Shown here piece by piece: positions 33,717 through 50,747 of a stretch of 64,000 nucleotides of DNA. Origin of the DNA: Escherichia phage Ptacy1532; the sequence record PQ863255.1, one strand, 5' to 3'. A program made the translations under genes and the position numbers. The notes beneath the pieces were generated by a model, which saw only the letters and a program-made list of their open reading frames with translations, searched no databases and was not told the DNA's origin. The stretch's first letter is position 1. Each line of letters begins with the position of its first letter.

Positions 33717-34132
33717 ATTTTAATTTCCTTATTTAATTTGAAAGATTGTTGCTCTCTTTGAGCGGTTATGTATAGTATACATTACGCTTATACCGATAAG
33801 AGTACTATATAATATAAGTATCTTTGGTAGTAGATATAACACACTAGTAATGTATATATTGTATAGCTGATAAAGTTATTGCAGGCTTGTATATTGGGCA
33901 ATTCACAGAATCCCTTGCAAGTACCGAAGGGCAGGAGCCACCTGCGAGATAAAAATAGAGAATTAAGGAATCCTTGATTTAGGTTGTAGGGACTCCTAGG
34001 GACTTTGATTCTCTATTTAAAAGAATATTAATTACTTATTACCTAAATAATTAACTAACTTACTTAAACCAAATTCAAGAATAATAGATAAAAAGATTAT
34101 TCCTAAGAAAGCTAAAAAGTAAAGGATATAAG
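33717..34132. promoter_or_regulatory. AT-rich intergenic region with promoter-like motifs, palindromes and direct repeats
   Basis: 416 bp non-coding; TAATGTATA on both strands (33848-33856 plus, 33776-33784 minus); palindromes GTATAC, AGTACT, CTTGCAAG; hairpin GCAGG-AGCCA-CCTGC; TAGGGACT direct repeat. Confidence 0.4.
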
Positions 34133-36278: not shown

Positions 36279-36515
36279 TCACTCTGCCAATGCAGGTATC
36301 TCTAATCTCTTAATTGTGAATGCTTTGTCTGGAAACTTTCGAACTAGCTCCGCTGCTTTGCTAATTGCTAAGTTCTCTGTTTCAAAGATACAGAATTGAC
36401 CATTCAGCGCGGTAATAGTGGAGCCACCACTGAAGATGGCCCAAGATTTATAATAACCACGAACGCTCATAACCCACCTTAGTGCGTATGCATCCAGTTT
36501 AGTCCAATCTGACAA
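36279..36515 (-). CDS. hypothetical protein (78 aa)
   Basis: ORF overlapping the 3' end of the polymerase gene in another frame. Confidence 0.35.
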   Translation of the reverse strand: MSDWTKLDAYALRWVMSVRGYYKSWAIFSGGSTITALNGQFCIFETENLAISKAAELVRKFPDKAFTIKRLEIPALAE

Positions 36516-38323
36516 TCAGAAGCCAGAGGACATTCCATGTTCAAATATTCACCCGCTTTCTTAACACAAAGCTCAGTGTGTTCTTTGAGTTTCTGTACAT
36601 CATTACGATTCACTGAGAATTGGCCCTCATCGTGCATATCAATTACCTTAGCACAACGAACCCTATCCCTCTCAATCCACTTGTTTAGGAACATCATAGC
36701 ATATTTCATAACAACAGCACCAGCACATTGCAGGAGAGTGTTAAGTGCTTTATGAACCATAACCTTACCAGTGGCATCTCGTCTCATTGTAATCTTACGA
36801 CCATCAACACCAATCAAGTATCCTTGAGCAGCTTTCTCTGTCATACGATCAATGAGGATTGCAATACATGGGTTCTCTGCCAAGAAACGTGCTCGCATCA
36901 CTGAACCTTCGTCAGCCCCACCACCTACAATTGAACCAAGCTTAGCGTCTCCAGCACCGTAGTTGAATGCATAGATAAACGTTTTAGCATTGTCACGAGT
37001 AGGAAGACCAGCAAGTTTCTGGTTGTGGGAGTGGATATCGCCTTCAAGGAGGATATCACGATACATAATAGCAGAAGCTAAACCACGTTCTGCCAGAGCT
37101 TTCTTAGCTGGATTGTTTTCTTCTATTGCTTCAGCAAGCATATCCCTACACTCTTTAATGAGGTAGTGAGCGAGCATACGAAGCTCAAGTCCAGAACCAT
37201 CATACCCTAAGAATACTTCTTTACCAGCGGGTATGTAATATTTGTAAGCACCTACAGGTTTGTCTTTCTTCCCCGGCTTACCTTTCTCGTAAATTACGTT
37301 AGTACCTTTTCGTATATAACAACCATCAGGAACAACGTTAGTAATAACGAAAGGACGAGAATGATCACTGTCTGAGTTATAGTCAGACTCAAACAGACTG
37401 CGACACTCGTGACCAAACAGACCACGGGAGGGAATATTAACCACGATACGATGTTTGAATCGAAAAGTCGGAGTAGCGCAGCTGTTAGCTTCTGCCGAAA
37501 GTTTACCATCTTCGCGTTCCTTTGCTATGAGTCCACTGATAAGACCTAGCCTGTGAGCCGCTACAACGCGTCTCTTAAGCAAACTTCCGACACTCCCTAG
37601 CTCACCCCCTAGCCCCTCTTCAAGAGTCTCCTCGAGGTTTGTAGGAGCTGTAGGCCACTTGTTTGATGTGGCTAGTGCTTTCTTAATCTCATCAAACGTT
37701 ACAGGATTACGACGATTAGGGTTCAATCCCAAACCAAATACGTAAGCCTTCATATAGTTCTTAGTCTTAAACCTGAAATGCTTTTCTAAGAACTTCTTAA
37801 TATCAGCGTCAACCATCTCGGCTGTCTGCTTCTGTTTAGTATTGCCTCGCATCCAAGCAGTGTACCATGCTTGATACGTTCCATACTTTCTCATATCTTT
37901 CTTAATTTCGAAAGTATTCCAAGGCTTCTTAGATACATTAAACTCTGGAGGAAGAAAGCCCTCATCCATAAGAGCTTCTTTAACTCGAGCATCTTTCGAT
38001 GGGTCAAAGTCTACGTATTCAACACAGGTGAAAGCTCCACCAATATCTTCTCTTTTCAGCCCAACCCTATCACAATAGGCTTGAGGCCACTTCTGTAAAG
38101 CTCCAGACTTCTTAAACGGCTTCATATAAGTAGAGCCGTCTAATCTCATCTTAGGTAAGAGAGGAATCAACTCTCTGTCAATATTAACAATAATCTCTTT
38201 AAGGAGGTGAACATACCACCGAGCATTTCTTCGGTTGAAACTCACTCCGTGCTTTGCTTGCTTAGAGATTATATCAGCGACAGTCATCTCTGTCAAAAAT
38301 GGAAGAGCGTCCGGGTTGCTCAC
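36479..38323 (-). CDS. DNA polymerase, family A polymerase domain (T7 gp5-like), lacks exonuclease domain
   Basis: 614 aa; motif A YDGSGLELRMLAHYL, motif B PTRDNAKTFIYAFNYGAGDAKLG, motif C VIDMHDEGQF; no Exo motifs. Confidence 0.8.
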   Translation of the reverse strand: MSNPDALPFLTEMTVADIISKQAKHGVSFNRRNARWYVHLLKEIIVNIDRELIPLLPKMRLDGSTYMKPFKKSGALQKWPQAYCDRVGLKREDIGGAFTCVEYVDFDPSKDARVKEALMDEGFLPPEFNVSKKPWNTFEIKKDMRKYGTYQAWYTAWMRGNTKQKQTAEMVDADIKKFLEKHFRFKTKNYMKAYVFGLGLNPNRRNPVTFDEIKKALATSNKWPTAPTNLEETLEEGLGGELGSVGSLLKRRVVAAHRLGLISGLIAKEREDGKLSAEANSCATPTFRFKHRIVVNIPSRGLFGHECRSLFESDYNSDSDHSRPFVITNVVPDGCYIRKGTNVIYEKGKPGKKDKPVGAYKYYIPAGKEVFLGYDGSGLELRMLAHYLIKECRDMLAEAIEENNPAKKALAERGLASAIMYRDILLEGDIHSHNQKLAGLPTRDNAKTFIYAFNYGAGDAKLGSIVGGGADEGSVMRARFLAENPCIAILIDRMTEKAAQGYLIGVDGRKITMRRDATGKVMVHKALNTLLQCAGAVVMKYAMMFLNKWIERDRVRCAKVIDMHDEGQFSVNRNDVQKLKEHTELCVKKAGEYLNMECPLASDCQIGLNWMHTH

Positions 38324-38339
38324 TTTATACTCCTTTAAA

Positions 38340-38762
38340 TTATTGGTAAAGTAAATCTGTAAATGCTTGGTTATCTTCTACCACACCTAACATGGTAGCT
38401 TCATCACTATAAGCTCTAACCGACCCATTGACAACTGTCCAAGGAGGGGGCGGAGGAGGTGTATGTGTAGCTCTGGCTTCACGAGGTTGTTCTCGTACCA
38501 GATGAGCCACAACTCTCTGATTAGCAACCTCTTCCCTTTCTCGAATAGCTCTTTGAATGTAAGCCAGCTTCATACCCCAAGCTTCTTCAAATTCTTGAGG
38601 GTGCTTATCGCTGATAACCACATACTGACGTTCAGGAATACCAGAGCGAATCTCTGATAATAATTCATGGAACAGGTCCAGTTCGTGCTCAGTGAGATTC
38701 ATTTCAATATCATCCCACTTGAGAACTAGGAAACGGTTTTGGTGTCTAGCTGGTAATGGCAT
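38340..38762 (-). CDS. hypothetical protein (140 aa)
   Basis: ORF with PPPPPP tract. Confidence 0.45.
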   Translation of the reverse strand: MPLPARHQNRFLVLKWDDIEMNLTEHELDLFHELLSEIRSGIPERQYVVISDKHPQEFEEAWGMKLAYIQRAIREREEVANQRVVAHLVREQPREARATHTPPPPPPWTVVNGSVRAYSDEATMLGVVEDNQAFTDLLYQ

Positions 38763-38925
38763 CCTACTCCACCTCTACTTCAATGTAAGTTCTCTCTCCA
38801 ACATCGTCTTTTAAGACCCATGACTTGGCATCTTCTTCCGACTTAAAAGCTTTCACAACGCTGTATCCGCCTTCCCATTCATCACCGAACCAGCGCTGTC
38901 CTACGTAAATGTATTCTTTCATCAC

Positions 38926-39210
38926 TCAACCTTTCGGGAATGGCATTAAAAATTCTACAGCAGATTTGATTTCGTTATTGATTCGTGAATCACGGTAAGA
39001 GATAAACTTACCTTTGCTGTCACGTAACATCACATGGGTTCTGGCTGTTTTGTGAGGAAGCAAAGTGATACTGGTTGGTATAGTATCAATTCCTACAGAG
39101 CATGAATTGATAGTCTTACTCTCTACTAGCAGATAAGACCAAGTACGCGGTTTCTGCTCCGGACGGTTGGGGTATGTGTCTCGAATCTGTACCATAGCTA
39201 ATTTATTCAT
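38926..39210 (-). CDS. hypothetical protein, paralog A
   Basis: 94 aa; shares ...GKFISY...N.E...AVE.L.PFPKG C-terminal pattern with the adjacent gene. Confidence 0.45.
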   Translation of the reverse strand: MNKLAMVQIRDTYPNRPEQKPRTWSYLLVESKTINSCSVGIDTIPTSITLLPHKTARTHVMLRDSKGKFISYRDSRINNEIKSAVEFLMPFPKG

Positions 39211-39211
39211 A

Positions 39212-39466
39212 TTAAACCCCTTTAGGGAATGGGATGAGATTTTCTACTGCAACACGGAAAGATTTTTCTACGTTCTTATTCTTATAAGAGATAAATTTTC
39301 CATCAGCCCCGCGAAGGAGCACGTTAGTGCGAGCTGTATTTGGGTTTTGTTGAATCATAGAACGAATGATGTTCTCTGAACCTCTATGCTTATTGGTGAA
39401 TTTCCAACTGATAGTTTTACCGGTACGAGTTACATCAATGATATTTACGATTTTTACAATAGACAT
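39212..39466 (-). CDS. hypothetical protein, paralog B
   Basis: 84 aa; tandem paralog of 38926..39210. Confidence 0.45.
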   Translation of the reverse strand: MSIVKIVNIIDVTRTGKTISWKFTNKHRGSENIIRSMIQQNPNTARTNVLLRGADGKFISYKNKNVEKSFRVAVENLIPFPKGV

Positions 39467-39535
39467 AGTTATTACCTAAGAAGTTTAGTTTGGTTTATAT
39501 AAAAGAAAAGGCCACCTGATTAGGCAGCCTTTGTT

Positions 39536-39829
39536 CTAGAGACGAAGCCAAGTTTGATAGTCAGCTTCAGTGTAATGGTTGTTCCGAGAGTTGTTTTTCA
39601 TCTCCTTGAGGGTAGCTCTTAGGTCGATGTTATGCTCTCTCCTTGTTCTATTCGGGTCTGTATCTTCTAATAGATGGGAGTGATCACTACAAGAGTAGTG
39701 CTTATAGTGGTCCCTGTACCCCCTATTTGGAGAATACTTGGTCATTAAAGTTGCAACTCTTTTTACACCCTCTGCTTTACAGAATTTACAGTAAGTGTGA
39801 ATTGTACATCTTTTTGTTTCTGCTGACAC
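39536..39829 (-). CDS. Cys/His-rich small protein
   Basis: 97 aa with CTIHTYCKFCK and further C/H residues; possible zinc-binding. Confidence 0.4.
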   Translation of the reverse strand: MSAETKRCTIHTYCKFCKAEGVKRVATLMTKYSPNRGYRDHYKHYSCSDHSHLLEDTDPNRTRREHNIDLRATLKEMKNNSRNNHYTEADYQTWLRL

Positions 39830-39839
39830 TATAACCTCT

Positions 39840-40154
39840 TTATGAGCTTAAAGCTCCTTTGCGTGCTCCAGCTGCTTTTCCAGCTCGATCACCACTTTTG
39901 CCGCCGTTTGAACGGTTTGAGCTGACTGATTCAACACGTAAATTGCTTGACGCATTAGAACCTCCAGACTTGACAGCTCGTTTGTGTCCAACATCTTTAC
40001 CTCTGACAGCAGCTTTTCCATCGCGCTTTTCAACGATGCGACGTGCACGGTGGCGCTGAGCATCTCCGCTCTTGCTCCCAACGCCTGTCTCACCACGGGC
40101 AATTGCGGTACGTCTTTCTTGTGCATAATCTCTCTTTCCTACATGGTCTGCCAT
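39840..40154 (-). CDS. highly basic Gly/Ser/Arg/Lys-rich protein
   Basis: 104 aa; strong TAAGGAG SD 6 nt upstream; TAATGTATA motif 36 nt upstream; an alternative overlapping frame (39848..40126) has weaker RBS. Confidence 0.4.
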   Translation of the reverse strand: MADHVGKRDYAQERRTAIARGETGVGSKSGDAQRHRARRIVEKRDGKAAVRGKDVGHKRAVKSGGSNASSNLRVESVSSNRSNGGKSGDRAGKAAGARKGALSS

Positions 40155-40190
40155 TTAGAACTCCTTAATATATCAGTGTACACTAAGGAG

Positions 40191-40199
40191 TATACATTA
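40191..40199 (-). promoter_or_regulatory. TAATGTATA motif, candidate phage promoter element
   Basis: Exact 9-mer on minus strand upstream of gene 39840..40154. Confidence 0.4.
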
Positions 40200-40208
40200 T
40201 AGATGATG

Positions 40209-40376
40209 TTAAAACTCTGCTAAGTACTTAATATCAGAGGCATATACCTCATCAAAGGAAATAACTTCCCCGTTGTAAAGAAGCTCTATTTTCAGTATAC
40301 CAGAGCATTTGGTGTCTTTAGAGTCAACTCTGATAGAGAGTTTATCAACTATATGAGCTTTAATCTCTTCTATCAT
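40209..40376 (-). CDS. hypothetical small protein
   Basis: ORF track 40209..40457; shortened to internal Met to avoid overlap. Confidence 0.3.
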   Translation of the reverse strand: MIEEIKAHIVDKLSIRVDSKDTKCSGILKIELLYNGEVISFDEVYASDIKYLAEF

Positions 40377-40389
40377 TAACTCTTGAGTA

Positions 40390-40575
40390 TTACTCACTCC
40401 ACCCTCCCGGTGGTACAAAATCATCAGGAACGTCAATGATAGTAGGTTCTCCATCATTCATGCAGGTGTCTTCATTGAACTCTTCACACTCAAAACATGC
40501 TCGTTCGATATTTTTGTAGAAGTCGATGGTTGCTGAACCATCACCACAATCTCGGATAACTAAAGCGACTTTCAT
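40390..40575 (-). CDS. hypothetical small Cys-containing protein
   Basis: 61-aa ORF, 4-nt overlap with phoH stop. Confidence 0.4.
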   Translation of the reverse strand: MKVALVIRDCGDGSATIDFYKNIERACFECEEFNEDTCMNDGEPTIIDVPDDFVPPGGWSE

Positions 40576-41315
40576 TTATCTTGTTCCTTTTCCATAGCTT
40601 TAACAATGGCTTTACAGAAACCAGAACGAACAATGTCATCTGACTCACCGTCTACAATCTCAGCAAACTCATACAGATCATGTTCATCAATAAAGTTAGT
40701 AGCCCAAGTCAGGCCACTCTCACGACCACGCATATCATGCTGGTTTGTATCACCCATGCAAAACAGCTGAGAGGTTTCTCCCAATCGAGTCATGATGGAG
40801 AAGGCTTCATCCTTAGTTGTGTTCTGGAACTCATCTACGATAACAATAGCATCATTGAAAGAACGACCACGGAGGTATTCCAGAGGTACGAACTCGATGT
40901 TGCTATTACCAAGTTGGCATTCATAGAACCCCTTACCATATCGCTGAGTAATAACATCAATGATAGGCATCAGGTAAGGTTCAAACTTCTCACGCATTCC
41001 TCCCGGAAGTAACCCAAGAGAATTGCCCATGCCAACCGAAGGACGACTCAGAATGATCTTCTGAATCTTACCACTCTTCAGTGCATCGATAACCGTGGAA
41101 GTGATTACAAAGGTCTTACCACAGCCCGCAGGAGCGTCTGTGAACACAACTTGTTTAGTCTTAATAGCATTGAGTAGCTCAGACTGAAACTGGTTCTGAG
41201 GGACTACAGGCTTTGCTAAAACCACCTCTTCATACTCTCGCTTACCTTTACGAGTAACAAGTGCTTCCCGACGAAGGTCTTTCCGTGATTCTTTCCGTGA
41301 TTGACGACGACTCAT
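40572..41315 (-). CDS. phoH: PhoH-like ATPase
   Basis: 247 aa; Walker A APAGCGKTF and PhoH-like core. Confidence 0.8.
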   Translation of the reverse strand: MSRRQSRKESRKDLRREALVTRKGKREYEEVVLAKPVVPQNQFQSELLNAIKTKQVVFTDAPAGCGKTFVITSTVIDALKSGKIQKIILSRPSVGMGNSLGLLPGGMREKFEPYLMPIIDVITQRYGKGFYECQLGNSNIEFVPLEYLRGRSFNDAIVIVDEFQNTTKDEAFSIMTRLGETSQLFCMGDTNQHDMRGRESGLTWATNFIDEHDLYEFAEIVDGESDDIVRSGFCKAIVKAMEKEQDK

Positions 41316-41509
41316 TTACGCTCTCCAATTTCTTCGTAATGACACTCAGTAGTTAAGCAGTCTTTACAGATTGCTGTATAAACCCTGACGTTAGTAAATC
41401 GTTTGTTCTTCCCTTTGGTTGGAGAGCCTTTGGCAAGCTCTCTGATAACCTTGTTACTTAAATGAAGGTTTGTTCCTTCACATCTAGAGCACTTCACCAC
41501 AATGTCCAT
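41312..41509 (-). CDS. small zinc-ribbon-like protein
   Basis: 65 aa; CSRC...CKDC Cys pairs. Confidence 0.4.
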   Translation of the reverse strand: MDIVVKCSRCEGTNLHLSNKVIRELAKGSPTKGKNKRFTNVRVYTAICKDCLTTECHYEEIGERK

Positions 41510-41694
41510 TCAGTAAGAGACCACAGGGAGTCACCTATGTGGGCATTGTCATTCCTGATGAGGTCTTTGATTTTATCAACATCAGTTAAGTGAGTCACAT
41601 TCAAAATATCCTCAACATCCGGGGTATATTTAAATATGGCAATAATACTGTTGTGATCTTCAGCATATCTTTCTAGAACATAAACTACACTCAT
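41494..41694 (-). CDS. hypothetical protein (66 aa)
   Basis: ORF in operon. Confidence 0.4.
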   Translation of the reverse strand: MSVVYVLERYAEDHNSIIAIFKYTPDVEDILNVTHLTDVDKIKDLIRNDNAHIGDSLWSLTEWTLW

Positions 41695-41897
41695 AAGGCA
41701 TCAACCTCTCTCAGATACCACCATTTAAACTCAACACCTTTACGACCACCACCATTCATAACCCAACGCATCATCTCATCAGGTATTCCAAAAGGTTTAA
41801 GTTTCGCATAGTTAGGTTTTTCTAAGAACACAGCTTCAAAATACTCACCATCTTGATCATACTGGTTGATTGCTCTTGTTAGTACCCATACTTTCAT
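41691..41897 (-). CDS. hypothetical protein
   Basis: ORF track 41691..42008; shortened to internal Met MKVWVL to resolve overlap with upstream gene. Confidence 0.35.
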   Translation of the reverse strand: MKVWVLTRAINQYDQDGEYFEAVFLEKPNYAKLKPFGIPDEMMRWVMNGGGRKGVEFKWWYLREVDAL

Positions 41898-42213
41898 TAC
41901 TCTTCTCTTTATGAAGTCTATAAACAGCTGTCGCCATGCAAGCAACAGCTTCATTATGCGGAAGGTGCATCCCTGTAGAACCATCCCAATCTTTGAACTC
42001 ATTGTCAAAGACTCCGGTAGGTTCTGGATACAGAGCTTGCAGCTCCACTAGATCATTAGCAACTTGTTGCCATTTATCATCAGACCAGATAGGGTCATCC
42101 AACCAGTAATACAAATAGGAATGGATGATCAATTGCCTTCTATGCCGATTGATTACTTCAGCGGGACTTATTTCACTTCCATTTGAAGTTCTAAATGTAT
42201 TACCGTCGATCAT
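41857..42213 (-). CDS. small protein resembling the N-terminal Ia domain of NAD-dependent DNA ligase
   Basis: 118 aa; HSYLYYWLDDPIWSD...L.EL.ALYPE parallels the LigA H.YLY..D.P.I.D..YD..L.EL....PE pattern; no adenylation KxDG motif. Confidence 0.35.
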   Translation of the reverse strand: MIDGNTFRTSNGSEISPAEVINRHRRQLIIHSYLYYWLDDPIWSDDKWQQVANDLVELQALYPEPTGVFDNEFKDWDGSTGMHLPHNEAVACMATAVYRLHKEKSNESMGTNKSNQPV

Positions 42214-42416
42214 TATGAAAATTTCCGTTCTGTTAAAAAGTATATAACTTCATTATCTGGAGACCGAACTTTCTCTCCATTTACTAATTTCTTAGCATCT
42301 TCATATGAAGCACAATCCAAAGCAGGGTTATCAGGTGTTGGCTTCCCTAGGAAATATTTCCAAGTCCAACGCTCTCTGTCATCATCTTGACAGTCAAGAG
42401 TCCACAATGTTTTCAT
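42213..42416 (-). CDS. hypothetical protein (67 aa)
   Basis: ORF in operon. Confidence 0.4.
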   Translation of the reverse strand: MKTLWTLDCQDDDRERWTWKYFLGKPTPDNPALDCASYEDAKKLVNGEKVRSPDNEVIYFLTERKFS

Positions 42417-42601
42417 TTAACAACCTTAAATTTGAATGTTGTTGGGTGATAATAGTGCAACCTGTTGATAGTATGCTTTGTTTCAAGGTATGTCCTACAG
42501 GAGTGGCACATAACATGAGACAAACCAGTCACAGGATTGGGCTTAAAATTGATGATAAGCTTCTCTTTCTTACAGAAGCTACAGACTTTCTTTTCCATCT
42601 T
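42413..42601 (-). CDS. small Cys/His-rich protein
   Basis: ORF track 42413..42667; internal Met MEKKVCSFCKK...CHSC preferred. Confidence 0.3.
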   Translation of the reverse strand, partial: KMEKKVCSFCKKEKLIINFKPNPVTGLSHVMCHSCRTYLETKHTINRLHYYHPTTFKFKVVK

Positions 42602-42812
42602 TTCTCCAGTGGTCAACGAATTGCTGAAACACTTTATGGTCGAAGGTGAAACCACGAGCAATCCCACACTCTACGAAAGTAGAAGGCATATAGTCTACAT
42701 CACCTTTAGATGTATGACCATAAACTTGAATAAGCTTTTTAATCTTACCCTTCTCTCTTCGAGGAAGCATCCTAAATGCCTCCTGAATATCTGTAATATG
42801 TTTGACTTTCAT
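42579..42812 (-). CDS. hypothetical protein (77 aa)
   Basis: ORF in operon. Confidence 0.35.
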   Translation of the reverse strand: MKVKHITDIQEAFRMLPRREKGKIKKLIQVYGHTSKGDVDYMPSTFVECGIARGFTFDHKVFQQFVDHWRKDGKESL

Positions 42813-42958
42813 CAGAAATTCCTGCTAATCCTCTGGATTATGAGAACAGCAATACTCACATACTCCGCAATATGGACAAATTTCTACACTTGGGTCATAT
42901 GCATCATCCACTGTCATTCCGCACTTGGTACAGAACACGTCGTCATCTTCTTCCAATA

Positions 42959-43615
42959 TTAAATCTCCAATGTTTTCTTCAGAGCTGCCCACGAGATTGG
43001 GTAGATCTTAGTCATCTCTTCGTCTACAGATTTAGCAAACACTCGAACTTCATATTGAGCGTGAGAGGAGAGTCGCTGACGACACAACTCAAACCATCCA
43101 TACAAAGAACCAGTCCACACCCACTCAGTGATCATCCCCTGAGGAAGAACAAATCGAGCTTGCTCTGGTGCAATAAATTCAATCAACTTGTCATATGCTG
43201 CTAGAGAAGCTTCATATGCATCATTAATCAGCATTAATGCTTCAGCTCGTTCTCCGTCGATGAGTTGAATCCCTGAACCTGCATGGAGGTCCGAAGGTCT
43301 CGCAAAAATCTCTTTAGGGATGAAGACTTCAACTGCTCCATCTTTATACCGCCGGGACATTTCGTTCCACGAGAATCCAACCTGATGCTTCTGTAGTTGA
43401 CGAGCGATTGCAATTGGAGCCTTACAACGAAAGGACACTTGTGGGTGACGGAACGGAGTGCAGTGTTTCTCTCTAGCCAAGAAATTAATCAACCGAGTGT
43501 CACGATCGTTCAAATCACCCTCTCGTACAACACCAAAAGAAACTCTTGCAGCATTAACAACAGTTTTATCACTGCCCATAGCCTCAATCAATGTTGCTTG
43601 CAATTGTTCATTCAT
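42959..43615 (-). CDS. thyX: flavin-dependent thymidylate synthase (ThyX-like)
   Basis: 218 aa; overall ThyX-like pattern with HCTPFRH and SRRY segments; call from motif resemblance only. Confidence 0.6.
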   Translation of the reverse strand: MNEQLQATLIEAMGSDKTVVNAARVSFGVVREGDLNDRDTRLINFLAREKHCTPFRHPQVSFRCKAPIAIARQLQKHQVGFSWNEMSRRYKDGAVEVFIPKEIFARPSDLHAGSGIQLIDGERAEALMLINDAYEASLAAYDKLIEFIAPEQARFVLPQGMITEWVWTGSLYGWFELCRQRLSSHAQYEVRVFAKSVDEEMTKIYPISWAALKKTLEI

Positions 43616-44087
43616 ACTTCAACTTCTCCTTGTTATAAGCAATCTCTGCTTCCTCTGGAGTATGGAAAGTTCCTAGATGCTTAGTCTTTCCATTAACTCC
43701 GATGATAGCTCTGAATTTTGTACCACTAGCCGTCTCTCTGATGTAAACACCCATTGGAAGTTTTCCAGCTTTTCCGGCTCTGTTGTATTGTTTTCTGTTA
43801 TGACAGTTTGTAGATGGGTCAACATCTCTTAGATTTTTAAGAGAGTCATCCAGTTTAATCTGGTTGATATGATCAATCTCAAACTCAGGCATCTTTCCAT
43901 AAGAGAAAAACCAAGCTAATCGACATGCTCTGTAAGATTTCCCTTCATAATAGATATACCTGTAACCTAATGTTGAGATACACCCAGCAATGTTCCCTGA
44001 TATTCTCCGACCTTTAGTATTCTTCCACCTAAAGACCCCAGTATCAGGGTCATATGCTAGGTCATCTTTTATTTTATCAGTTAACAC
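43608..44087 (-). CDS. HNH homing endonuclease with AP2-like domain
   Basis: 159 aa; EIDHINQIKLDDSLKNLR HNH motif; C-terminal GVY..ASGTKFRA AP2-like segment. Confidence 0.7.
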   Translation of the reverse strand: MLTDKIKDDLAYDPDTGVFRWKNTKGRRISGNIAGCISTLGYRYIYYEGKSYRACRLAWFFSYGKMPEFEIDHINQIKLDDSLKNLRDVDPSTNCHNRKQYNRAGKAGKLPMGVYIRETASGTKFRAIIGVNGKTKHLGTFHTPEEAEIAYNKEKLKYE

Positions 44088-44352
44088 CTAAAGCTGTGTC
44101 CAAAAATGCTTTCAGGTTTGCTTCAGTCTGCATACCAGAGAGGCTGTAATGTGCACCGCTGTTACGGTCAGGTACAACGAAAGCAGGGATGCTTCGTACA
44201 CCATACTTAACAGCTTGCTCACGACCATCACCTTCAAGGATGTTAATCTCTTCCACTTCTACATCAAACTCCTTAACAACCTTCTCAAAGGTAGGAGCCA
44301 TTGCTTTACATGGAGCACATTGATCACTATAAAACTTAATTACTTTAGACAT
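44077..44352 (-). CDS. thioredoxin-fold protein
   Basis: ORF track 44077..44358 (TTG); ATG 44352 preferred (GAGGA SD); CAPC active-site motif and cis-Pro region VRSIPAFVV. Confidence 0.65.
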   Translation of the reverse strand: MSKVIKFYSDQCAPCKAMAPTFEKVVKEFDVEVEEINILEGDGREQAVKYGVRSIPAFVVPDRNSGAHYSLSGMQTEANLKAFLDTALGVN

Positions 44353-44522
44353 TAACAATCCTCGTTAACAAATTCTTTAAGGTGGCGTTCTGTGGTAGGT
44401 ATTACGATGTAATCTTTATACCCTTGAGCTTTGGCTAAATCCTCAGCTATCTTTTTAGTAGCCCCCAATGCCATCACACACTGACAAACAATCACCGTGT
44501 GAGCTTTGTATTCGTCCTTCAT
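44352..44522 (-). CDS. hypothetical small protein (56 aa)
   Basis: Below ORF-track cutoff; stop overlaps thioredoxin start (TAATG); contains CQC. Confidence 0.25.
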   Translation of the reverse strand: MKDEYKAHTVIVCQCVMALGATKKIAEDLAKAQGYKDYIVIPTTERHLKEFVNEDC

Positions 44523-44772
44523 TTAAGAACCTTATGCAGTCAGGAGGTGAAGCAGGAATGGGATAACAACAGCTACGATAACCATGATGGTTGATGCTGT
44601 TTGAATCTCACCTTTCTTGTCAGGGGTTTCTTCGATAAGCTTACCAGAAGCCCAATAAATACCACCACCGATAAAGATAGCCCAAATACCCCATACGATT
44701 GCTGATAACATATATCTATATCCTTATAAATAAGTTCGCCCCACCTCGGGTTAGGAGACAGGGCGGAGGTTT

Positions 44773-45384
44773 TTAGTAAGACACATCACCACTTGAGTGG
44801 GACATGTTGCTCTTGACGAAGTAGCAATACTTGCCAAGACCTTCATTAATTTCTTGAAGCATACTCTGGTCAACTGGATAAGTGGCTAAATCGCCATCAA
44901 ACTCATCCATCTTCTCAATAATACACATCAAGGTCATGCACATATCAGAGAGCATACCGTCCATATCCAGATCAGCATTACCCTCTGAGAACCAAGCATG
45001 GGAGAGGTAGTTAGCTGCTGTAGCATCCACCTTAACACAGTGGTATCGCATACGCTCAGCAATACGATCTCCTACTTGTCGTGCGTAATCTTCCAGCTCA
45101 TCAAACATACCATGAACACCCTGAAATCCTGCACCAGAGACATTCCAGTGGTAGTTCTTAGCTTTGATATGCAAGAGTTCCATGTTAGCTTGTAAGCAGC
45201 TTAGGATGTGTTCTAGGCTGTTTCCACTAATCATACCCTGCATAGTTTCAAGGCGAGAGATTGAAAGCTCAGACCGGTCTAACATGTTATATTCTGCACG
45301 ACCAATCTCAGGTAAATCAAAGACATTCTTATGCATTTGGGTTTTCTCCATCAAGTTCAACTGAGTTAGCAACGTTACGTGCAA
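44773..45384 (-). CDS. Dps/ferritin-like protein (putative)
   Basis: 203 aa; KNYHWNVSGAGFQGVHGMFDELEDYARQVGDRIAERM fits the Dps pattern HWN..G..F...H...E.......D.IAER. Confidence 0.45.
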   Translation of the reverse strand: MHVTLLTQLNLMEKTQMHKNVFDLPEIGRAEYNMLDRSELSISRLETMQGMISGNSLEHILSCLQANMELLHIKAKNYHWNVSGAGFQGVHGMFDELEDYARQVGDRIAERMRYHCVKVDATAANYLSHAWFSEGNADLDMDGMLSDMCMTLMCIIEKMDEFDGDLATYPVDQSMLQEINEGLGKYCYFVKSNMSHSSGDVSY

Positions 45385-45658
45385 TATTATCCATTACCTG
45401 CTGGGTAATTACGATGCAGTTCTGTGGGTCTACTGACTTAGAACGCCCCATTTCAGGGTCATACACCTTAACTCGCTTAGCAGTTGAACCTGTAACCTGA
45501 AGAACCTTCAACAGATATCCCTGATTACCAATAGACCAAGCAACAACATCACGATTCTTGATAAAGCGACCAAGCATATCACGATGATAAAACTGTTGCA
45601 TCACCTTGGATTTTGTAATCTCTTCAGTGGGCGGGGCCACTTTACTCAAATCTAACAT
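45329..45658 (-). CDS. hypothetical protein (109 aa)
   Basis: ORF; AAATGTATAT promoter-like variant 40 nt upstream. Confidence 0.4.
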   Translation of the reverse strand: MLDLSKVAPPTEEITKSKVMQQFYHRDMLGRFIKNRDVVAWSIGNQGYLLKVLQVTGSTAKRVKVYDPEMGRSKSVDPQNCIVITQQVMDNIARNVANSVELDGENPNA

Positions 45659-45698
45659 AACTCTCTCCTGTAAAAATACAAATTCTTATTGTACTCTA

Positions 45699-45707
45699 TA
45701 TACATTT
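45699..45707 (-). promoter_or_regulatory. AAATGTATA motif variant, candidate promoter element
   Basis: One mismatch to TAATGTATA; intergenic, upstream of 45329..45658. Confidence 0.3.
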
Positions 45708-45731
45708 GAGAGTTACCATATCTACTACCAA

Positions 45732-45941
45732 TCAGTAATAAATTACTTTAGACATAAAAGAACCCGAGCTAGGGTCTTCGTACCAGCGATGAATGTCAGC
45801 ACTTTTAACAGTTCCTATTAGAGCTTTCATGTTCTTTTTAGCGACACGAGCCTCTTTGCGAGTGTTAAACAGTTTGATATTATCTTTACCTAAGTGTTGT
45901 TTCTGTTCCCAAACAACACGAACAGCCCACATCTTTTTCAT
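45732..45941 (-). CDS. small basic protein, tandem paralog 3 of 3
   Basis: 69 aa; W.VRV...F.TR.EAR..KK pattern and C-terminal YY shared with two upstream genes. Confidence 0.45.
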   Translation of the reverse strand: MKKMWAVRVVWEQKQHLGKDNIKLFNTRKEARVAKKNMKALIGTVKSADIHRWYEDPSSGSFMSKVIYY

Positions 45942-46150
45942 TAGTAATGTACCTTTCCGCTGATATAAATACGACCAGAGGAATACTCCTTGGCCTTATG
46001 GATACTAATGCTCTTAGTTAAGTCCATATTGAACATAGACTTTTTAAAATCTCGAGCTTGTTGACGGGTGGGCAGTGCAGTCATAGTCATACCACCTGAT
46101 GCCCACTTAATCTTCGCTAACCAGAACTGTCTCATAGTGATTGGTCTCAT
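45941..46150 (-). CDS. small basic protein, tandem paralog 2 of 3
   Basis: 69 aa; same family; 1-nt start/stop overlaps. Confidence 0.45.
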   Translation of the reverse strand: MRPITMRQFWLAKIKWASGGMTMTALPTRQQARDFKKSMFNMDLTKSISIHKAKEYSSGRIYISGKVHY

Positions 46151-46347
46151 TAATAATAAACCTTGCTGTTGGCAAAAAGAGCACCTTCGTTATTCACAAT
46201 AGCTTTTCCTATTGTAATCTTACCTGACAGACCTATCCCCTTAAAAATCTTCTTAATTCGACGGGCGTGCTCTCGAGTATTAACAAAATCTACAGATTTT
46301 ATATCACCTGTCTTGTTATCATGTACACGAACAATCCACTTTTTCAT
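46150..46347 (-). CDS. small basic protein, tandem paralog 1 of 3
   Basis: 65 aa; MKKWIVRV...TREHARRIKK...KVYY. Confidence 0.45.
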   Translation of the reverse strand: MKKWIVRVHDNKTGDIKSVDFVNTREHARRIKKIFKGIGLSGKITIGKAIVNNEGALFANSKVYY

Positions 46348-46550
46348 TTTACTAAACCTTTCATATAATCATAAAGAGCATTAGAAGCTTTACCCCATTC
46401 AAGGTGCTTCTTATCCATATAACTCTTACAGGTTTCTTTACTGCTTTCATCACAAATATCAAATCGATGACATGCTCGACCAAATACCATGGCTTTTAAC
46501 TGAACATCGGTAGTTAGATATTTAAGTTCTTGAAACTCTTCTTTAGTCAT
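46344..46550 (-). CDS. hypothetical protein (68 aa)
   Basis: ORF in operon. Confidence 0.4.
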   Translation of the reverse strand: MTKEEFQELKYLTTDVQLKAMVFGRACHRFDICDESSKETCKSYMDKKHLEWGKASNALYDYMKGLVK

Positions 46551-47084
46551 TTACACACCTTTAGATGCAACTACACCTTCAGAGTTATTATAACGACCCT
46601 TCACTGCATAGGAGTGTTCCCCTGCATGAGAGTGCTCAAACATGACCATCTGACCAACACGCATACCAGCACGAACTCGTAAGCTATGATGCTTGGTTAC
46701 GTTATGGAACTCAAATGTCAGCTTACTGCTGTTAAACCCTGCGTCTGCCCACCCGGCGTGGAGATGGTTCAAACCACAACGAGCCATAGACGAACGCAGA
46801 ACAAACAGACTTGAGATGTTATCTGGAAGATTAAACTCCTCCATAGAGTGAGCCAAGAAAAACTGACCCGGAGTGATAACCAAACCCTCTTCAGGAATCT
46901 TTACTTCTTTCCACTGAAGATTCTCTTTCGCATCAATATCAACGATGCCATCAGCCTGTTCTTCAACAAGGATAGTATCACCAATACGGATATCCACACT
47001 AGCAGCGTTAACATACTTATGCTCCGCATCCAGATAGCCATTGTCAATTACATCGTGCAGTTCAACACTTCCTAGTAAACTCAT
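46551..47084 (-). CDS. dcd: dCTP deaminase / dUTPase-family enzyme
   Basis: 177 aa; AASVDIRIGDT and GWADAGF match dCTP deaminase signature regions. Confidence 0.7.
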   Translation of the reverse strand: MSLLGSVELHDVIDNGYLDAEHKYVNAASVDIRIGDTILVEEQADGIVDIDAKENLQWKEVKIPEEGLVITPGQFFLAHSMEEFNLPDNISSLFVLRSSMARCGLNHLHAGWADAGFNSSKLTFEFHNVTKHHSLRVRAGMRVGQMVMFEHSHAGEHSYAVKGRYNNSEGVVASKGV

Positions 47085-47093
47085 TCTTATTCC

Positions 47094-48404
47094 TTAGTTA
47101 TTTGTTTCCATGTCAAAAGAGATTCCACGACCCGCTTCATCGGCAAACCGATCATCGAGACTGTGACTGACAGTATCAGCAAGTTCTTCATGAGAGGGAA
47201 TGTCAAGACTACCTACCACATCTTGAGCAGAAGCTTCATCAGTCCAGATAACACGAGAAGGGGCGTTGATATCACCAACAGCAAAACCCTGACCAGAGAA
47301 CTGGTGACGGCTAATAGTCAAACCATTTGATCGACCACGAGAAGGACTAGACATCCATCTCTCCATAGAATCACTTGTAATGCCAAGAGCTTCTTCAAAA
47401 GATGTTCTACGAGAAGAGCTTAGATTTCGTGCTTCATTTGCTCGGCGTCTTGTAGGGGCTACAAACACCCCTTCGATTGCGTTATGACGACTAGGCTCTT
47501 CTTCTCTACCAAGCAAATCACCACCCGTGTTAGTCGTTAAATTTGTCAACCCTTCAGACCAATACGCATAAATTTGACCAGACCCATGAAGACTTGACAT
47601 AATCTGAATCTCTTCATAGGGGATTCCAAAGAATCGACTCATGTCACGGTTAACGCAATACTGAGCACTTGTTGTATCCTCAATAAGAGAAACCTGACCT
47701 AATCCATTAACCAGATGACTAACTGGCTGAGGTGTAGGAAGGTATCGAGTTTGGGCCATATATTGATATGCAACAGATGGAGCTGAGAATCTCAACACTT
47801 GTGAATTAGGCCACTTTTTGTGAACGTATCTGATTTCACGACTAGAAACAACCACAGGGCAAGGAGCGGTCATAGCTAAATACCCATGAGGGGTCATGAA
47901 TAAGTTGTCAAGAGTCATCGCACCACGGCACATCATAGGAAAATTATCCAGAACCTCTTCAATAGAAGTAGGATAATTAAACATGAACTGGATACGAGTT
48001 CCATTCCACTGAAACTCAATAATATCAGTGAACGTTAATTGAGAAGTCCCTGTGTATGGCTCATCTGTAGCTTCAGCAAGAAGTGACGAATATTCAATAT
48101 CTTGTGACTCAAGCCACTCCTTCACGTTACTTTCAATTTCTCTTCCAAGAGCTTGCCAATGATCAGTTGATGTGAAAGTATTTTGGGTTCTTGGTGTTTG
48201 TCCTCTGACAATAAAGATATCAATGTCATGTGGAGCTGTGTTGTTAAGGACAGCATCACGAACAGCCCCACCAGTAATGATGGGACAGATACCGTCTGGA
48301 ATCAAGTTGTTGTTAATCAACTGTTCAATGAAGTGACGACCAACAGTGATATCAGGTTGTTGAGCAACCTTATCTTCAATTCGGTTAATCGGGATAACAA
48401 TCAT
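47094..48404 (-). CDS. nucleotidyltransferase, Pol-beta superfamily (CCA-adding / poly(A) polymerase-like head)
   Basis: ORF track 47094..48461; internal Met start preferred; ITGGAVRDAVL...HDIDIFI matches the GGxxRD...DxD head-domain motif; divergent C-terminal 300 aa. Confidence 0.5.
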   Translation of the reverse strand: MIVIPINRIEDKVAQQPDITVGRHFIEQLINNNLIPDGICPIITGGAVRDAVLNNTAPHDIDIFIVRGQTPRTQNTFTSTDHWQALGREIESNVKEWLESQDIEYSSLLAEATDEPYTGTSQLTFTDIIEFQWNGTRIQFMFNYPTSIEEVLDNFPMMCRGAMTLDNLFMTPHGYLAMTAPCPVVVSSREIRYVHKKWPNSQVLRFSAPSVAYQYMAQTRYLPTPQPVSHLVNGLGQVSLIEDTTSAQYCVNRDMSRFFGIPYEEIQIMSSLHGSGQIYAYWSEGLTNLTTNTGGDLLGREEEPSRHNAIEGVFVAPTRRRANEARNLSSSRRTSFEEALGITSDSMERWMSSPSRGRSNGLTISRHQFSGQGFAVGDINAPSRVIWTDEASAQDVVGSLDIPSHEELADTVSHSLDDRFADEAGRGISFDMETNN

Positions 48405-48405
48405 T

Positions 48406-48963
48406 TTACATTTTCCAATATAATGAAGGTGGGTCGTAAGGGTCAAATCCTGTGAGTTCACACAAGAAAAGATAAACCTTAACAGTTAAGTTAACGTCCT
48501 GTTCACAATAAGTAAACATATCTTCAGTGAAAGCATCCCATGCTTCCTCTTGCTCACCATAATCGCCCTTAAGTTCTCCTAAGAACTCACCCCACTGCTT
48601 CAAACCATGACCTCTTGGGCCACGTCTAGGGTCGCCTTTCGGATACTCAGGACTGTCACCAATACGGTCAGGTTTAAGATATCGACTAAGACATAAAGTG
48701 TCAAAGACGTTAAAACGATATTCAATTAGATTAGGATACATTTTCTTCAGAGCACAAAGGTCGAAGTCAATAATATTATGACCCACGAGCACATCTGCTT
48801 CTGTCAGTTTACGAATCCCGTCTTCGATTTGGTGAGGCCGATAGCCCCACCTTTCACCAGTTTCAACATCGAAGATATAAATACACCATACTTTAGTTAT
48901 GTCATCGTACAGTGCATTACTCTCGATATCGAATGCAAACACTTTCTTCTTTTTCTTTACCAC
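48406..48963 (-). CDS. 3'-5' exonuclease domain protein (T7 gp5 N-terminal-like)
   Basis: 185 aa; FDIESNAL (Exo I), [13 protein letters not shown] (Exo II), YCEQDV (Exo III); encoded separately from the polymerase domain. Confidence 0.7.
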
Positions 48964-50747
48964 GGTGAAGCTCCATCTGCTTGGTTGACGAGAGAAGCTG
49001 CATCCTCTCCATTAGTTAAAACGAATGGATTATCTTCATCAACTTCAAAGTCTTCCCTTTCTACAAGTCTACCGGTTTCACTGATATACTTAGTATAGCA
49101 GACACCCGTCTGACCGTAGTTACGTTCTTTCAGTAATCGAATGACTGAGAGGTTCTTAGCTAAGCCATCAGCTTGCTTGTCGCGCTCAAAGCCAATGATA
49201 CACTGACACCAACGCATAAGGGAACGAGAACCAGTGAACTGCACTTCACGTACCTGTCCACCTTCTTCATGAGGAGCACCACCTGCCGGAGCATTAAGGT
49301 GAGATAGAACGAAAGCGGTAAAGTCTAATTCTTTACACATACCAGCAAGCTCAGAAGCAATCTTACTGATTTCAGTGTTAATCTCTGAAGGTGTTAAATG
49401 AGATACCAGAGCGGTAATGTTATCAAGGATGATAAACTTACACTGGTTTTCAACTACCCAGAAACGGATACACTGTTTAATGTCTTCCCATTCGTTCTGT
49501 CCGAAGTTGTCATACAAGAAGAATTTGTCTGCATAACGAAGTGCTTCATTACGCAAATCCTCCTCATCATATTCAACATCAGGTCGGTGGAAAGGAATTG
49601 ATGCTGACTTACCAGCAATGTTCTTAACAGACATGCCTACCTTCTCTTCCAAGAAGAAGCCACCTCCATTAAAACCGTGCTCTAAGCACAGATGAGCAAC
49701 TAGTTCGTGAGCAATTAGTGTTTTACCACTACCTACACCACCACCGATGGCTACCACCTCTCCCCATCGAATACCGAAGGTCATCTCATTCAGAGTCTTC
49801 CACGGATAGGGAATACCCCACTCCGCTTTCTTCAGAGCATCATCAAGACAATCAAAGATTGTTACAGCGCCAGCAGGAGATTCCCGCTTTGCTGAATACT
49901 TGAGAATGTTGAATAGCTCTTGACCACGACCAGATAGAAGCATGTCATTCGCATCCTTAATCTCTTTCTCCACACCATTGTATGGGAAAGTTCCTTTAGG
50001 AATACGAGCAAACTTGACATGAGGGAATAAAGAACGACCTTTTGTTAAAGCTATCTCACCTGCATCATCGTTGTCCATGCAGAGCACAACCTCCTCAAAA
50101 CCATTTACGAAGTCTCGATTACGAGACAACACAGAAGAGATTGAACCTGCACCGAACGGTAAAGAAACACATGCTGGTTTAATATTTGTTGCATTTGTAA
50201 AAGCTGTAAGGACATGGAATCCGGACATACAAGATAGCGGGTCTTCAAAAATGAAGAGCTTCTTGTTGTACACATCTCCACGTTGAGCCTGTGCCATACC
50301 AAATAGGTCTGCTTCTTTCACGCTGCCGACGTAATAGAATTTCTTACTATCTAGTAGCTTAACCTCGTAACCAACAATGTTTCCATCACGTTCACGAGGA
50401 AAGAAGTAGCTGTCTGGAGTCTGTCCATCAGTCTGACTTAGACCAATGCGACACTCAAAACGCTCTGATACAGCTTTAGGGATTAAACGTCGAGTAAGTT
50501 CACCCTGAGGAAGTTCCAAGCAATCATCTAAGACTTCTCTCAACTCTTCAGGGGATAACTCTTTCTTCTCGTTTGGAGTAGGTGTAGTGCCCTTTTCGAA
50601 CACTTCGTAATTCCCACAACGGTTACAACTTCCCCACTCCTCACCTGTCTCTTCGTTACGGAAGAGAATCATGTGGTTGTGGGTTTTATCACGACCATGA
50701 GAGATACATTCCTTACAACCTGTGTCTCCCAAAATGATCTTTGACAT
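48957..50747 (-). CDS. primase-helicase (T7 gp4-like)
   Basis: 596 aa; N-terminal Cys4 zinc motif, central TOPRIM-like region, C-terminal Walker [12 protein letters not shown] DnaB-like helicase. Confidence 0.8.

What the first reader, a model, noticed from the sequence alone, without database searches (positions are those of the whole stretch)
36479..48963. T7-like DNA polymerase split into separately encoded exonuclease and polymerase genes about 10 kb apart
Seen in sequence: ORF 48406..48963 carries Exo I/II/III motifs collinear with the N-terminus of T7 gp5, while ORF 36479..38323 carries family-A motifs A, B and C but no exonuclease motifs. About 25 genes lie between them, including two HNH endonucleases and thymidylate-synthase, thioredoxin and PhoH genes. 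Inference: either two polypeptides assemble into one enzyme, or the exonuclease has an independent proofreading or recombination role.
Basis: partly seen in the sequence, partly recalled or inferred. Interest (0 to 1): 0.55.

Follow-up and report, generated by a model that had tools for sequence, protein, structure and literature searches.

The report
Split T7-type DNA polymerase, already described
This E. coli phage of the phiEco32/Kuravirus group encodes the proofreading and polymerising halves of a T7-type DNA polymerase as two genes 10 kb apart, which is real but has been noted for this phage group since 2008 and never tested biochemically.

Summary
On the minus strand, 48406-48963 (185 aa) is a 3'-5' exonuclease. 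Its only PDB sequence matches below E=1, and its 27 best fold matches, are the N-terminus of T7 gp5. ORF 36479-38323 (614 aa) is the gp5-type polymerase domain. It has motifs A, B and C and the C-terminal His, and no exonuclease domain. The break lies in the interdomain linker, as shown against gp5, one PHROG profile and a natural fused relative. Catalytic residues are invariant in 34 exonuclease and 58 polymerase homologues.

The window is 92-97% identical to Kuravirus phages. The split is already in the literature: the phage tf paper (2012) cites Savalia 2008 for phiEco32, and the YF01 paper (2023) states it for the whole group. PHROGs names the small protein "DNA polymerase exonuclease subunit". 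LUZ24-like Pseudomonas phages share the split and the gene order primase/helicase, exonuclease, inserted genes, polymerase.

I found two things not stated in those papers. Split polymerases separate from 68 fused relatives (NJ bootstrap 49/50). All 52 carry a thumb insertion of 56-87 aa, and 51 carry an insertion before motif A.

One detail is wrong: only one HNH gene lies between the halves.

Assembly into a two-subunit enzyme is likely but inferred. Verdict: already known, low interest.

The parts
48406..48963 (-). 3'-5' proofreading exonuclease subunit (185 aa), homologous to the N-terminal domain of T7 gp5. Its GTG start overlaps the primase/helicase stop (GTGGTAA), with GGAG 7 nt upstream.
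   Evidence: Pfam DNA_pol_A_exo1 2e-8. phmmer against PDB gives T7 gp5 residues 3-178, E 2e-11. PHROG 'DNA polymerase exonuclease subunit' 1e-78. AF2 pLDDT 94.2; the top 27 fold hits are T7 gp5. DEDDy residues are invariant or nearly so (Y151 at >=90%) in 34 homologues. Junction sequence read.
36479..38323 (-). Family A DNA polymerase subunit (614 aa) with thumb, palm and fingers only. GTG start with AAGGAG 6 nt upstream. C-terminal His as in gp5.
   Evidence: Pfam DNA_pol_A 6e-23. T7 gp5 E 1e-32. phrog_17 positions 836-1233. AF2 pLDDT 91.5; best PDB fold match is T7 gp5, E 6e-25. Motif residues invariant in 58 homologues. Start context read.
48957..50747 (-). Primase/helicase (596 aa; Toprim plus DnaB_C), directly upstream of the exonuclease gene and overlapping its start. 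Acidic C-terminal tail ending in Trp.
   Evidence: Pfam DnaB_C 1e-10, Toprim_2 weak. The same adjacency is seen in SU10, WFI101126 and LUZ24. Translation.
38340..48404 (-). About 10 kb of cargo (~28 ORFs) inserted between the two halves. It contains an NTase (47094-48404), dCTP deaminase (46551-47084), a Dps/ferritin-like protein (44773-45384), thioredoxin (44077-44358), an HNH (43608-44087), ThyX (42959-43615), a LigA domain Ia protein (41857-42213), PhoH (40572-41315) and many small ORFs.
   Evidence: The equivalent interval is 8 genes and 2.3 kb in LUZ24, and more than 10 kb in a metagenomic relative.
44077..44358 (-). Phage-encoded thioredoxin (CAPC active site), a candidate processivity partner of the polymerase by analogy with T7 gp5 and host thioredoxin.
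   Evidence: Pfam Thioredoxin 2e-13. The hypothesis was published for the related phage Privateer (PMC7881722). Not tested here.
29613..30431 (-). Separately encoded 5'-3' exonuclease (FEN-like), the counterpart of T7 gp6.
   Evidence: Pfam 5_3_exonuc_N 6.5e-6, below the gathering score. The YF01 paper lists a separate 5'-3' exonuclease for the group.

Best explanation
The two ORFs are the two halves of one ancestral T7 gp5-type replicative DNA polymerase gene. In a common ancestor of the phiEco32-like (Kuravirus and relatives) and LUZ24-like podophages, the gene was cut at the linker between the 3'-5' exonuclease domain and the polymerase domain.

The exonuclease half stayed next to the primase/helicase gene, and its start overlaps that gene's stop. 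Accessory genes then accumulated in the gap: 2.3 kb in LUZ24 and about 10 kb here.

Both halves remain catalytically competent. They most likely reassemble non-covalently into a two-subunit polymerase in which a mismatched primer end is passed from the polymerase site to the exonuclease subunit. This resembles E. coli Pol III alpha-epsilon, or the two-piece PhiKZ polymerase.

Shown here: the homology, the position of the break, the intact catalytic residues, and the shared ancestry and gene order of the split. Inferred: physical assembly and proofreading by the exonuclease subunit.
For: Collinear mapping onto three references:
- T7 gp5: exonuclease 10-160 to gp5 3-178; polymerase 11-614 to gp5 ~205-704.
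- One PHROG profile: 667-826 and 836-1233 of phrog_17.
- A natural fused relative, P0176: exonuclease to 5-154 at 35% identity; polymerase to 168-618 at 31-42% identity.

Catalytic residues are invariant in 34 stand-alone exonucleases down to 31% identity (Exo III Y151 in >=90% of them), and in 58 polymerases.

All 59 word-indexed exonuclease homologues are short, though a few continue into polymerase sequence and look like cut-off fused genes. The filter-free profile search shows the family nested among fused polymerases of ~600-700 aa (6239 hits).

LUZ24 has the same order: GGACT-like gene, one gene, primase/helicase, exonuclease overlapping its stop, 8 genes, polymerase (compare).

Split and fused polymerases separate cleanly in an NJ tree of 430 polymerase-domain columns, bootstrap 49/50.

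Exonuclease and polymerase diverge at similar rates between lineages: about 33% and 39% identity to LUZ24-like phages, and about 49% and 48% to the Cronobacter A24 / Proteus P59 group.

Precedent for non-covalent reassembly: the PhiKZ split family B polymerase forms a stable 1:1 complex (PMC13648687).
Against: No direct evidence of binding exists.

The genes are about 10 kb apart. Terminator-like hairpins (39507-39532, 44737-44765) and phage-sigma promoter motifs (40191-40199) lie between them, so their stoichiometry is not enforced by co-translation.

The conserved C-terminal tail of the exonuclease (FDPxxPP...W) is not shared with LUZ24 gp25, so no universal docking peptide is evident.

I found no biochemical study of either protein.
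Confidence: 0.62

Rival explanations
1. The exonuclease is a free, trans-acting nuclease. It does not form a stable complex with the polymerase. It edits 3' ends distributively, or serves recombination, end-processing or degradation of host DNA.
For: The genes are in different parts of the middle-gene region, with promoter and terminator motifs between them. The exonuclease start overlaps the primase/helicase stop rather than lying near the polymerase gene. No docking element shared by both split lineages was seen.
Against: The fold and sequence are specifically those of a polymerase-attached proofreading domain. The gene has been kept alongside the split polymerase in every group member reported, and across lineages only ~33-39% identical. 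T7-type phages already use a separate 5'-3' exonuclease for recombination and host DNA breakdown (established knowledge of T7 gp6), and a candidate for it is present at 29613-30431.
Confidence: 0.28
2. The small ORF is an independently acquired DnaQ/RNase T/WRN-type exonuclease unrelated to the polymerase gene, so the polymerase never had this domain.
For: Pfam PF01612 also covers RNase D and WRN-type nucleases.
Against: The only PDB sequence matches below E=1 are T7 gp5. Fold matches to stand-alone DEDD nucleases are 5-6 orders of magnitude weaker than those to gp5. The ORF matches the same PHROG polymerase profile, immediately N-terminal to where the polymerase ORF matches. Fused relatives align across the junction.
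Confidence: 0.02
3. The split is an artefact (sequencing or assembly error, a frameshift, or an intron/intein that is spliced out), or the exonuclease ORF is a decaying remnant.
For: Some relatives do have polymerase genes interrupted by endonuclease-bearing introns, such as LUZ24 parts II and III. Some metagenomic and BUCT695 polymerase genes are called as ~450-aa pieces.
Against: The same arrangement, with about 10 kb and ~28 independent genes in between, occurs in ~98 sequenced phage records, 50 of which cover at least 80% of the interval. Each half has its own Shine-Dalgarno sequence and start codon. The catalytic residues of the exonuclease are invariant or nearly so across a diverse family.
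Confidence: 0.01

Closest known systems
phiEco32-like / Kuravirus (Gordonclarkvirinae) split DNA polymerase, e.g. SU10 gp051 + gp075, YF01 gp49 + gp70
   Same: 92-97% nucleotide identity across the whole interval. Same two genes and same neighbours. [quoted passage not shown]
   Different: Nothing essential. This genome carries a sporadic HNH gene between thyX and trx, found in only 6 of the ~98 related records.
LUZ24-like (Bruynoghevirus) 'DNA polymerase part I / part II'; PaP3 orf39 'DNA polymerase exonuclease subunit'; phage tf gp28 + gp38
   Same: Homologous split at the same domain boundary. The exonuclease gene lies directly after the primase/helicase gene and overlaps its stop. The polymerase is 39-42% identical over 98-99% of its length. 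The split is described in PMC3517423.
   Different: Only 8 genes and 2.3 kb lie between the halves. The thumb insertion is shorter, and the post-motif-A insertion is absent. In LUZ24 itself the polymerase gene is further interrupted by an endonuclease-bearing intron.
T7 gp5 (fused family A replicative polymerase with host thioredoxin)
   Same: Best structural and sequence match for both halves. Same DEDDy and A/B/C motifs and C-terminal His. Same primase/helicase-then-polymerase gene order.
   Different: T7 gp5 is a single polypeptide. Here the T7 thioredoxin-binding loop region is about 25 residues shorter, and there are added thumb and pre-motif-A insertions. The thioredoxin here is phage-encoded.
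Uncultured ~45-48 kb podophage contigs with fused 590-640 aa polymerases (P0176 family)
   Same: These are the closest fused relatives: 42-47% identity to the polymerase half and 35% to the exonuclease half. Primase/helicase lies upstream.
   Different: They are a single gene and lack the two insertions: 3-14 aa against 56-87 aa, and 4-5 aa against a median of 45 aa.
E. coli Pol III alpha (DnaE) + epsilon (DnaQ), and the PhiKZ split family B polymerase DNAP-N/DNAP-C
   Same: Functional analogy. Polymerase and proofreading activities, or the two halves of a polymerase, sit on separate polypeptides that assemble. PhiKZ forms a stable 1:1 complex (PMC13648687). Pol III is established knowledge.
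   Different: These are different polymerase families (C and B). They are not homologous splits.

Membership tests
T7 gp5-type family A DNA polymerase | N-terminal DEDDy 3'-5' exonuclease motifs Exo I, II and III | tested here: met
   D11/E13, H61/N62/D67 and Y151/D155 are present; all are invariant in 34 homologues except Y151, which is kept in >=90%. They align to gp5 D5/E7, D65 and D174.
T7 gp5-type family A DNA polymerase | Polymerase motifs A, B and C and the C-terminal His | tested here: met
   D374/E379, R442/K446/Y450, H563/D564/E565 and the terminal His are invariant in 58 homologues. Alignment to gp5.
T7 gp5-type family A DNA polymerase | Exonuclease and polymerase domains on one polypeptide | tested here: not met
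   Two ORFs lie 10,082 bp apart, each with its own SD sequence and start codon.
T7 gp5-type family A DNA polymerase | Thioredoxin-binding loop in the thumb | tested here: inconclusive
   Polymerase residues 63-135 align weakly to gp5 289-357. The preceding part of the loop is about 25 residues shorter. Thioredoxin binding cannot be tested here.
Split polymerase of phiEco32-like and LUZ24-like phages ('DNA polymerase exonuclease subunit' plus polymerase subunit) | Separate exonuclease and polymerase genes, broken at the interdomain linker | tested here: met
   Matches phrog_403 and phrog_38876, 'DNA polymerase exonuclease subunit'.
Split polymerase of phiEco32-like and LUZ24-like phages ('DNA polymerase exonuclease subunit' plus polymerase subunit) | Exonuclease gene immediately downstream of primase/helicase, polymerase further downstream on the same strand | tested here: met
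   Window, SU10, WFI101126 and LUZ24.
Split polymerase of phiEco32-like and LUZ24-like phages ('DNA polymerase exonuclease subunit' plus polymerase subunit) | Polymerase groups with other split polymerases rather than with fused ones | tested here: met
   The NJ bipartition of 52 split against 68 fused sequences is supported in 49 of 50 bootstraps. Sampling is biased towards the best hits of two queries.
Split polymerase of phiEco32-like and LUZ24-like phages ('DNA polymerase exonuclease subunit' plus polymerase subunit) | The two proteins form one enzyme | not testable with these tools
No biochemical report was found.
Stand-alone DnaQ / RNase T / ExoI-type DEDD exonucleases | Closer in sequence or fold to stand-alone DEDD nucleases than to polymerase-attached domains | tested here: not met
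   There are no PDB sequence hits to them. Fold E-values are 2e-5 to 5e-5, against 4e-11 for gp5.

The most novel reading that the evidence does not exclude
The two insertions that set the split lineage apart may be what replaced the lost covalent linker. These are a 56-87 aa helical thumb insertion in all 52 split polymerases sampled, and a 14-53 aa beta-rich insertion just before motif A in 51 of them. The 68 sampled fused relatives have neither. They could be docking surfaces that hold the free exonuclease subunit, or the phage thioredoxin, on the polymerase.

Separate genes under different promoters would then let the phage change the exonuclease-to-polymerase ratio, and so replication fidelity, during infection.
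Probability: 0.2. Interest if true: 0.5.

Novelty: already known. Interest (0 to 1): 0.18.

Why it matters
As an observation it adds nothing new. The split is annotated in GenBank records, named in PHROGs, and discussed in at least two papers.

What remains open is biochemical. It is unknown whether a family A replicative polymerase can proofread with a non-covalently attached, or entirely free, exonuclease domain. It is also unknown how the complex is held together, and whether fidelity is tunable.

Kuravirus phages are being developed for therapy against avian and multidrug-resistant E. coli, so their mutation rate has some practical relevance. A naturally exonuclease-free T7-type polymerase of 614 aa could also be of biotechnological interest.

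Tried and rejected
(1) Joint AF2 model of exonuclease plus polymerase as one concatenated chain, with 68 fused relatives and 51 split polymerases as alignment rows (A4).

(2) A first concatenated alignment (A3) that also held stand-alone exonuclease homologues. I discarded it because MAFFT stretched the short sequences across the whole length.

(3) Savalia et al. 2008 (PMC2587145) could not be read. Its content is cited only through PMC3517423.

(4) Searched for a second HNH among the intervening ORFs. None was found in those scanned; about five of the smallest were not scanned.

(5) Searched for a cryptic exonuclease in the polymerase ORF or elsewhere in the window. None was found.

(6) Considered and rejected programmed frameshifting from the primase/helicase gene into the exonuclease gene across the A-rich run. 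The helicase stop codon precedes the run, and the exonuclease has its own GGAG and GTG.

(7) The 10-kb flank of a 49%-identical metagenomic polymerase (L006) did not reach its exonuclease gene. This shows only that the gap there exceeds 10 kb.

(8) Literature searches for biochemical characterisation of any split family A phage polymerase found nothing.


Full report
**What the window is.** The interval 36479-48963 is 92-97% identical at the nucleotide level to about 98 sequenced E. coli and Shigella podophage records of the phiEco32/SU10 group (Kuravirus, Gordonclarkvirinae). The best matches are Ptacy1479 and vB_EcoP_WFI101126. All genes of the interval are on the minus strand. In SU10 both ORFs of the finding are annotated 'DNA polymerase' (SU10_051 and SU10_075). 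In Ptacy1479 they are 'DNA polymerase theta' and 'DNA polymerase I'.

**The exonuclease ORF.** ORF 48406-48963 (185 aa) matches Pfam DNA_pol_A_exo1 (2e-8).
- Against all PDB sequences, the only matches below E=1 are T7 gp5 chains. Residues 10-160 align to gp5 3-178 at E 2e-11.
- PHROGs files it under 'DNA polymerase exonuclease subunit' (phrog_38876 at 1e-78, phrog_403 at 9e-38). It also matches positions 667-826 of the large DNA polymerase family phrog_17.
- An AF2 model built on 34 homologues is confident (pLDDT 94.2). Its 27 best PDB fold matches are all T7 gp5 (E 4e-11 to 9e-9).
- The next fold match is the family A polymerase DpoZ (4e-6). Stand-alone DEDD nucleases such as diDNase, ExoI and RNase T score only 2e-5 to 5e-5.
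- In an alignment of 34 stand-alone homologues reaching down to 31% identity, D11, E13, H61, N62, D67 and D155 are invariant, and Y151 is nearly so.

**The polymerase ORF.** ORF 36479-38323 (614 aa) matches Pfam DNA_pol_A over residues 361-611 and T7 gp5 at E 1e-32. It matches phrog_17 positions 836-1233, directly after the stretch matched by the exonuclease ORF.
- Motif A (D374, E379), motif B (R442, K446, Y450), motif C (H563, D564, E565) and the C-terminal His are invariant in 58 homologues. They align to the gp5 equivalents.
- The AF2 model has pLDDT 91.5, and its best fold matches are T7 gp5 (E 6e-25).
- An HMM of the exonuclease family, run with filters off against the six-frame translation of the whole window, hits only the exonuclease ORF. 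The polymerase has no cryptic exonuclease domain, and there is no second copy in the window.

**Where the break is.** A natural fused relative, P0176 (618 aa, on a 45-kb contig), aligns to the exonuclease ORF over its residues 5-154 and to the polymerase ORF over its residues 168-618. The four-way alignment with T7 gp5 and the LUZ24 pieces puts the break in the interdomain linker. Each half has its own translation signals.
- The exonuclease GTG overlaps the primase/helicase stop (GTGGTAA), with GGAG 7 nt upstream.
- The polymerase GTG has AAGGAG 6 nt upstream.

**The interval between the halves.** It is 10,082 bp long and holds about 28 ORFs; WFI101126 has 30 CDS there. ThyX, thioredoxin, PhoH, dCTP deaminase, a Dps-like protein and a nucleotidyltransferase are confirmed. 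Only one HNH endonuclease lies in the interval, at 43608-44087. The other, at 32547-32960, lies beyond the polymerase gene.

**Evolutionary context.**
- All 59 exonuclease homologues found by the word-indexed search are short, 101-247 aa. A few of the longest continue into polymerase sequence and look like fused genes cut off at contig ends.
- The filter-free profile search finds 6239 relatives. Its top 150 mix such short proteins with fused polymerases of ~600-700 aa.
- Polymerase homologues covering the full length are exonuclease-less proteins of 490-620 aa. They come from Kuravirus-like phages, Proteus phages and LUZ24-like Pseudomonas phages ('DNA polymerase part II'), at 39-50% identity.
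- LUZ24 has the same order: a GGACT-like gene, one gene, primase/helicase, exonuclease overlapping its stop, 8 small genes (2.3 kb), then polymerase.
- The nearest fused relatives are uncultured ~45-kb phage contigs with primase/helicase, ligase and a fused polymerase.
- On 430 polymerase-domain columns, 52 split and 68 fused sequences fall on opposite sides of one branch, in 49 of 50 NJ bootstraps.
- This fits one ancient splitting event followed by growth of the inserted cargo. In a 119-kb metagenomic relative the gap exceeds 10 kb. The sampling is biased and the tree method is simple, so this conclusion is provisional.

**Literature.** The split is not new.
[quoted passage not shown] - PMC7881722 proposes that the phage thioredoxin acts as a T7-like processivity factor.
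- I found no biochemical study of these proteins.
- The nearest experimental precedent is the PhiKZ split family B polymerase, whose two pieces form a stable 1:1 complex.

**Mechanism.** Shown: the two proteins are the two domains of a gp5-type polymerase, and both are under purifying selection at their catalytic residues. They are retained together across lineages that are only about 33-39% identical.

Inferred, at about 0.6: they reassemble non-covalently and the small subunit proofreads. The main rival, at about 0.3, is a free exonuclease acting without a stable complex. Independent acquisition, artefact and decay are excluded by the results above.

**What I found that the papers I read do not state.** All 52 sampled split polymerases carry a 56-87 aa insertion in the thumb (polymerase residues 129-215). 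All but one carry a 14-53 aa insertion just before motif A (residues 320-368). The 68 fused relatives have 3-14 and 4-5 residues at those places.

Because the split lineage is one clade, this is a single correlated event and not statistical evidence. It does give a concrete, testable candidate for the surface that replaced the covalent linker.

**Verdict.** The arrangement is already known at the annotation and literature level, and its biochemistry is untested. Interest is low.

Noticed in passing
window 38268-38296 (-), inside the polymerase ORF (codons ~10-19): This is the only perfect sigma-70 consensus promoter in the 64-kb window (TTGACA, 17 nt, TATAAT, with an extended -10 TG). It lies within the first 60 nt of the polymerase coding sequence, on the coding strand. 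The expected number of such matches is 0.03 per window. The sequence is identical in SU10, Ptacy1479 and WFI101126. A transcript started there would lack the polymerase start codon. I have no explanation for it.
   Followed up: partly
window 43608-44087 (-): A free-standing HNH endonuclease (phrog_99, 8e-54) sits between thyX and the thioredoxin gene. It is present in only 6 of the ~98 related phage records. It behaves like a sporadic homing endonuclease next to a thymidylate synthase gene.
   Followed up: partly
window 32547-32960 (-): A second HNH endonuclease (HNH_3 4.6e-13 plus a NUMOD4 motif) lies downstream of the polymerase gene.
   Followed up: no
window 47094-48404 (-): A 436-aa nucleotidyltransferase has a CCA-adding/poly(A) polymerase-type head domain (Pfam PolyA_pol 4e-4; phrog_12715 3e-237). 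It starts at an ATG 1 nt after the exonuclease stop, so the two may be translationally coupled. The mechanical ORF list extends it to a GTG at 48461, which is probably not the real start. LUZ24 has no such gene at this position.
   Followed up: partly
window 41857-42213 (-): A 118-aa protein consists only of the NAD+-binding domain Ia of NAD-dependent DNA ligase (Pfam Nlig-Ia, 2.5e-35). It is annotated in relatives as 'NAD-dependent DNA ligase' although it lacks the catalytic domains. It may be another stand-alone domain, perhaps acting on the host LigA.
   Followed up: no
relatives: P0073-P0076, P0139-P0163 (several), Aeromonas phage BUCT695 (P0158), LUZ24 (L005 11827-14133): In some relatives the polymerase half is itself called as a ~440-460 aa piece covering only 72% of this protein. 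In LUZ24 this is due to an intron carrying an endonuclease gene (parts II and III). In Pseudomonas phage WS1160 an 'endonuclease VII' gene interrupts it. The polymerase gene is a recurrent target of mobile elements.
   Followed up: partly
window 48957-50747 (-), C-terminus of primase/helicase: The primase/helicase ends in an acidic tail with a terminal aromatic residue (...[11 protein letters not shown]...ADGASPW). This is reminiscent of the acidic, Phe-terminated tail of T7 gp4 that binds gp5 (from my own knowledge of T7). It is a possible contact for the polymerase or for the exonuclease subunit.
   Followed up: no
window 40191-40199 (-), 33776-33784 (-), 45699-45707 (-, 1 mismatch): These are matches to the published phiEco32 gp36-sigma middle/late promoter element tAATGTAtA. 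Those at 40191 and 45699 lie between the exonuclease and polymerase genes. The polymerase could therefore be transcribed from promoters that do not drive the exonuclease gene. The total count of motif matches in the window is not above chance (20 found, 18 expected).
   Followed up: partly
window 48406-48460 (-), C-terminal tail of the exonuclease: The stand-alone exonucleases of the Kuravirus-like clade share a C-terminal tail, FDPxxPP(x)3-4W. Fused relatives and LUZ24 gp25 lack it. It is modelled at pLDDT ~82. Its function is unknown.
   Followed up: partly
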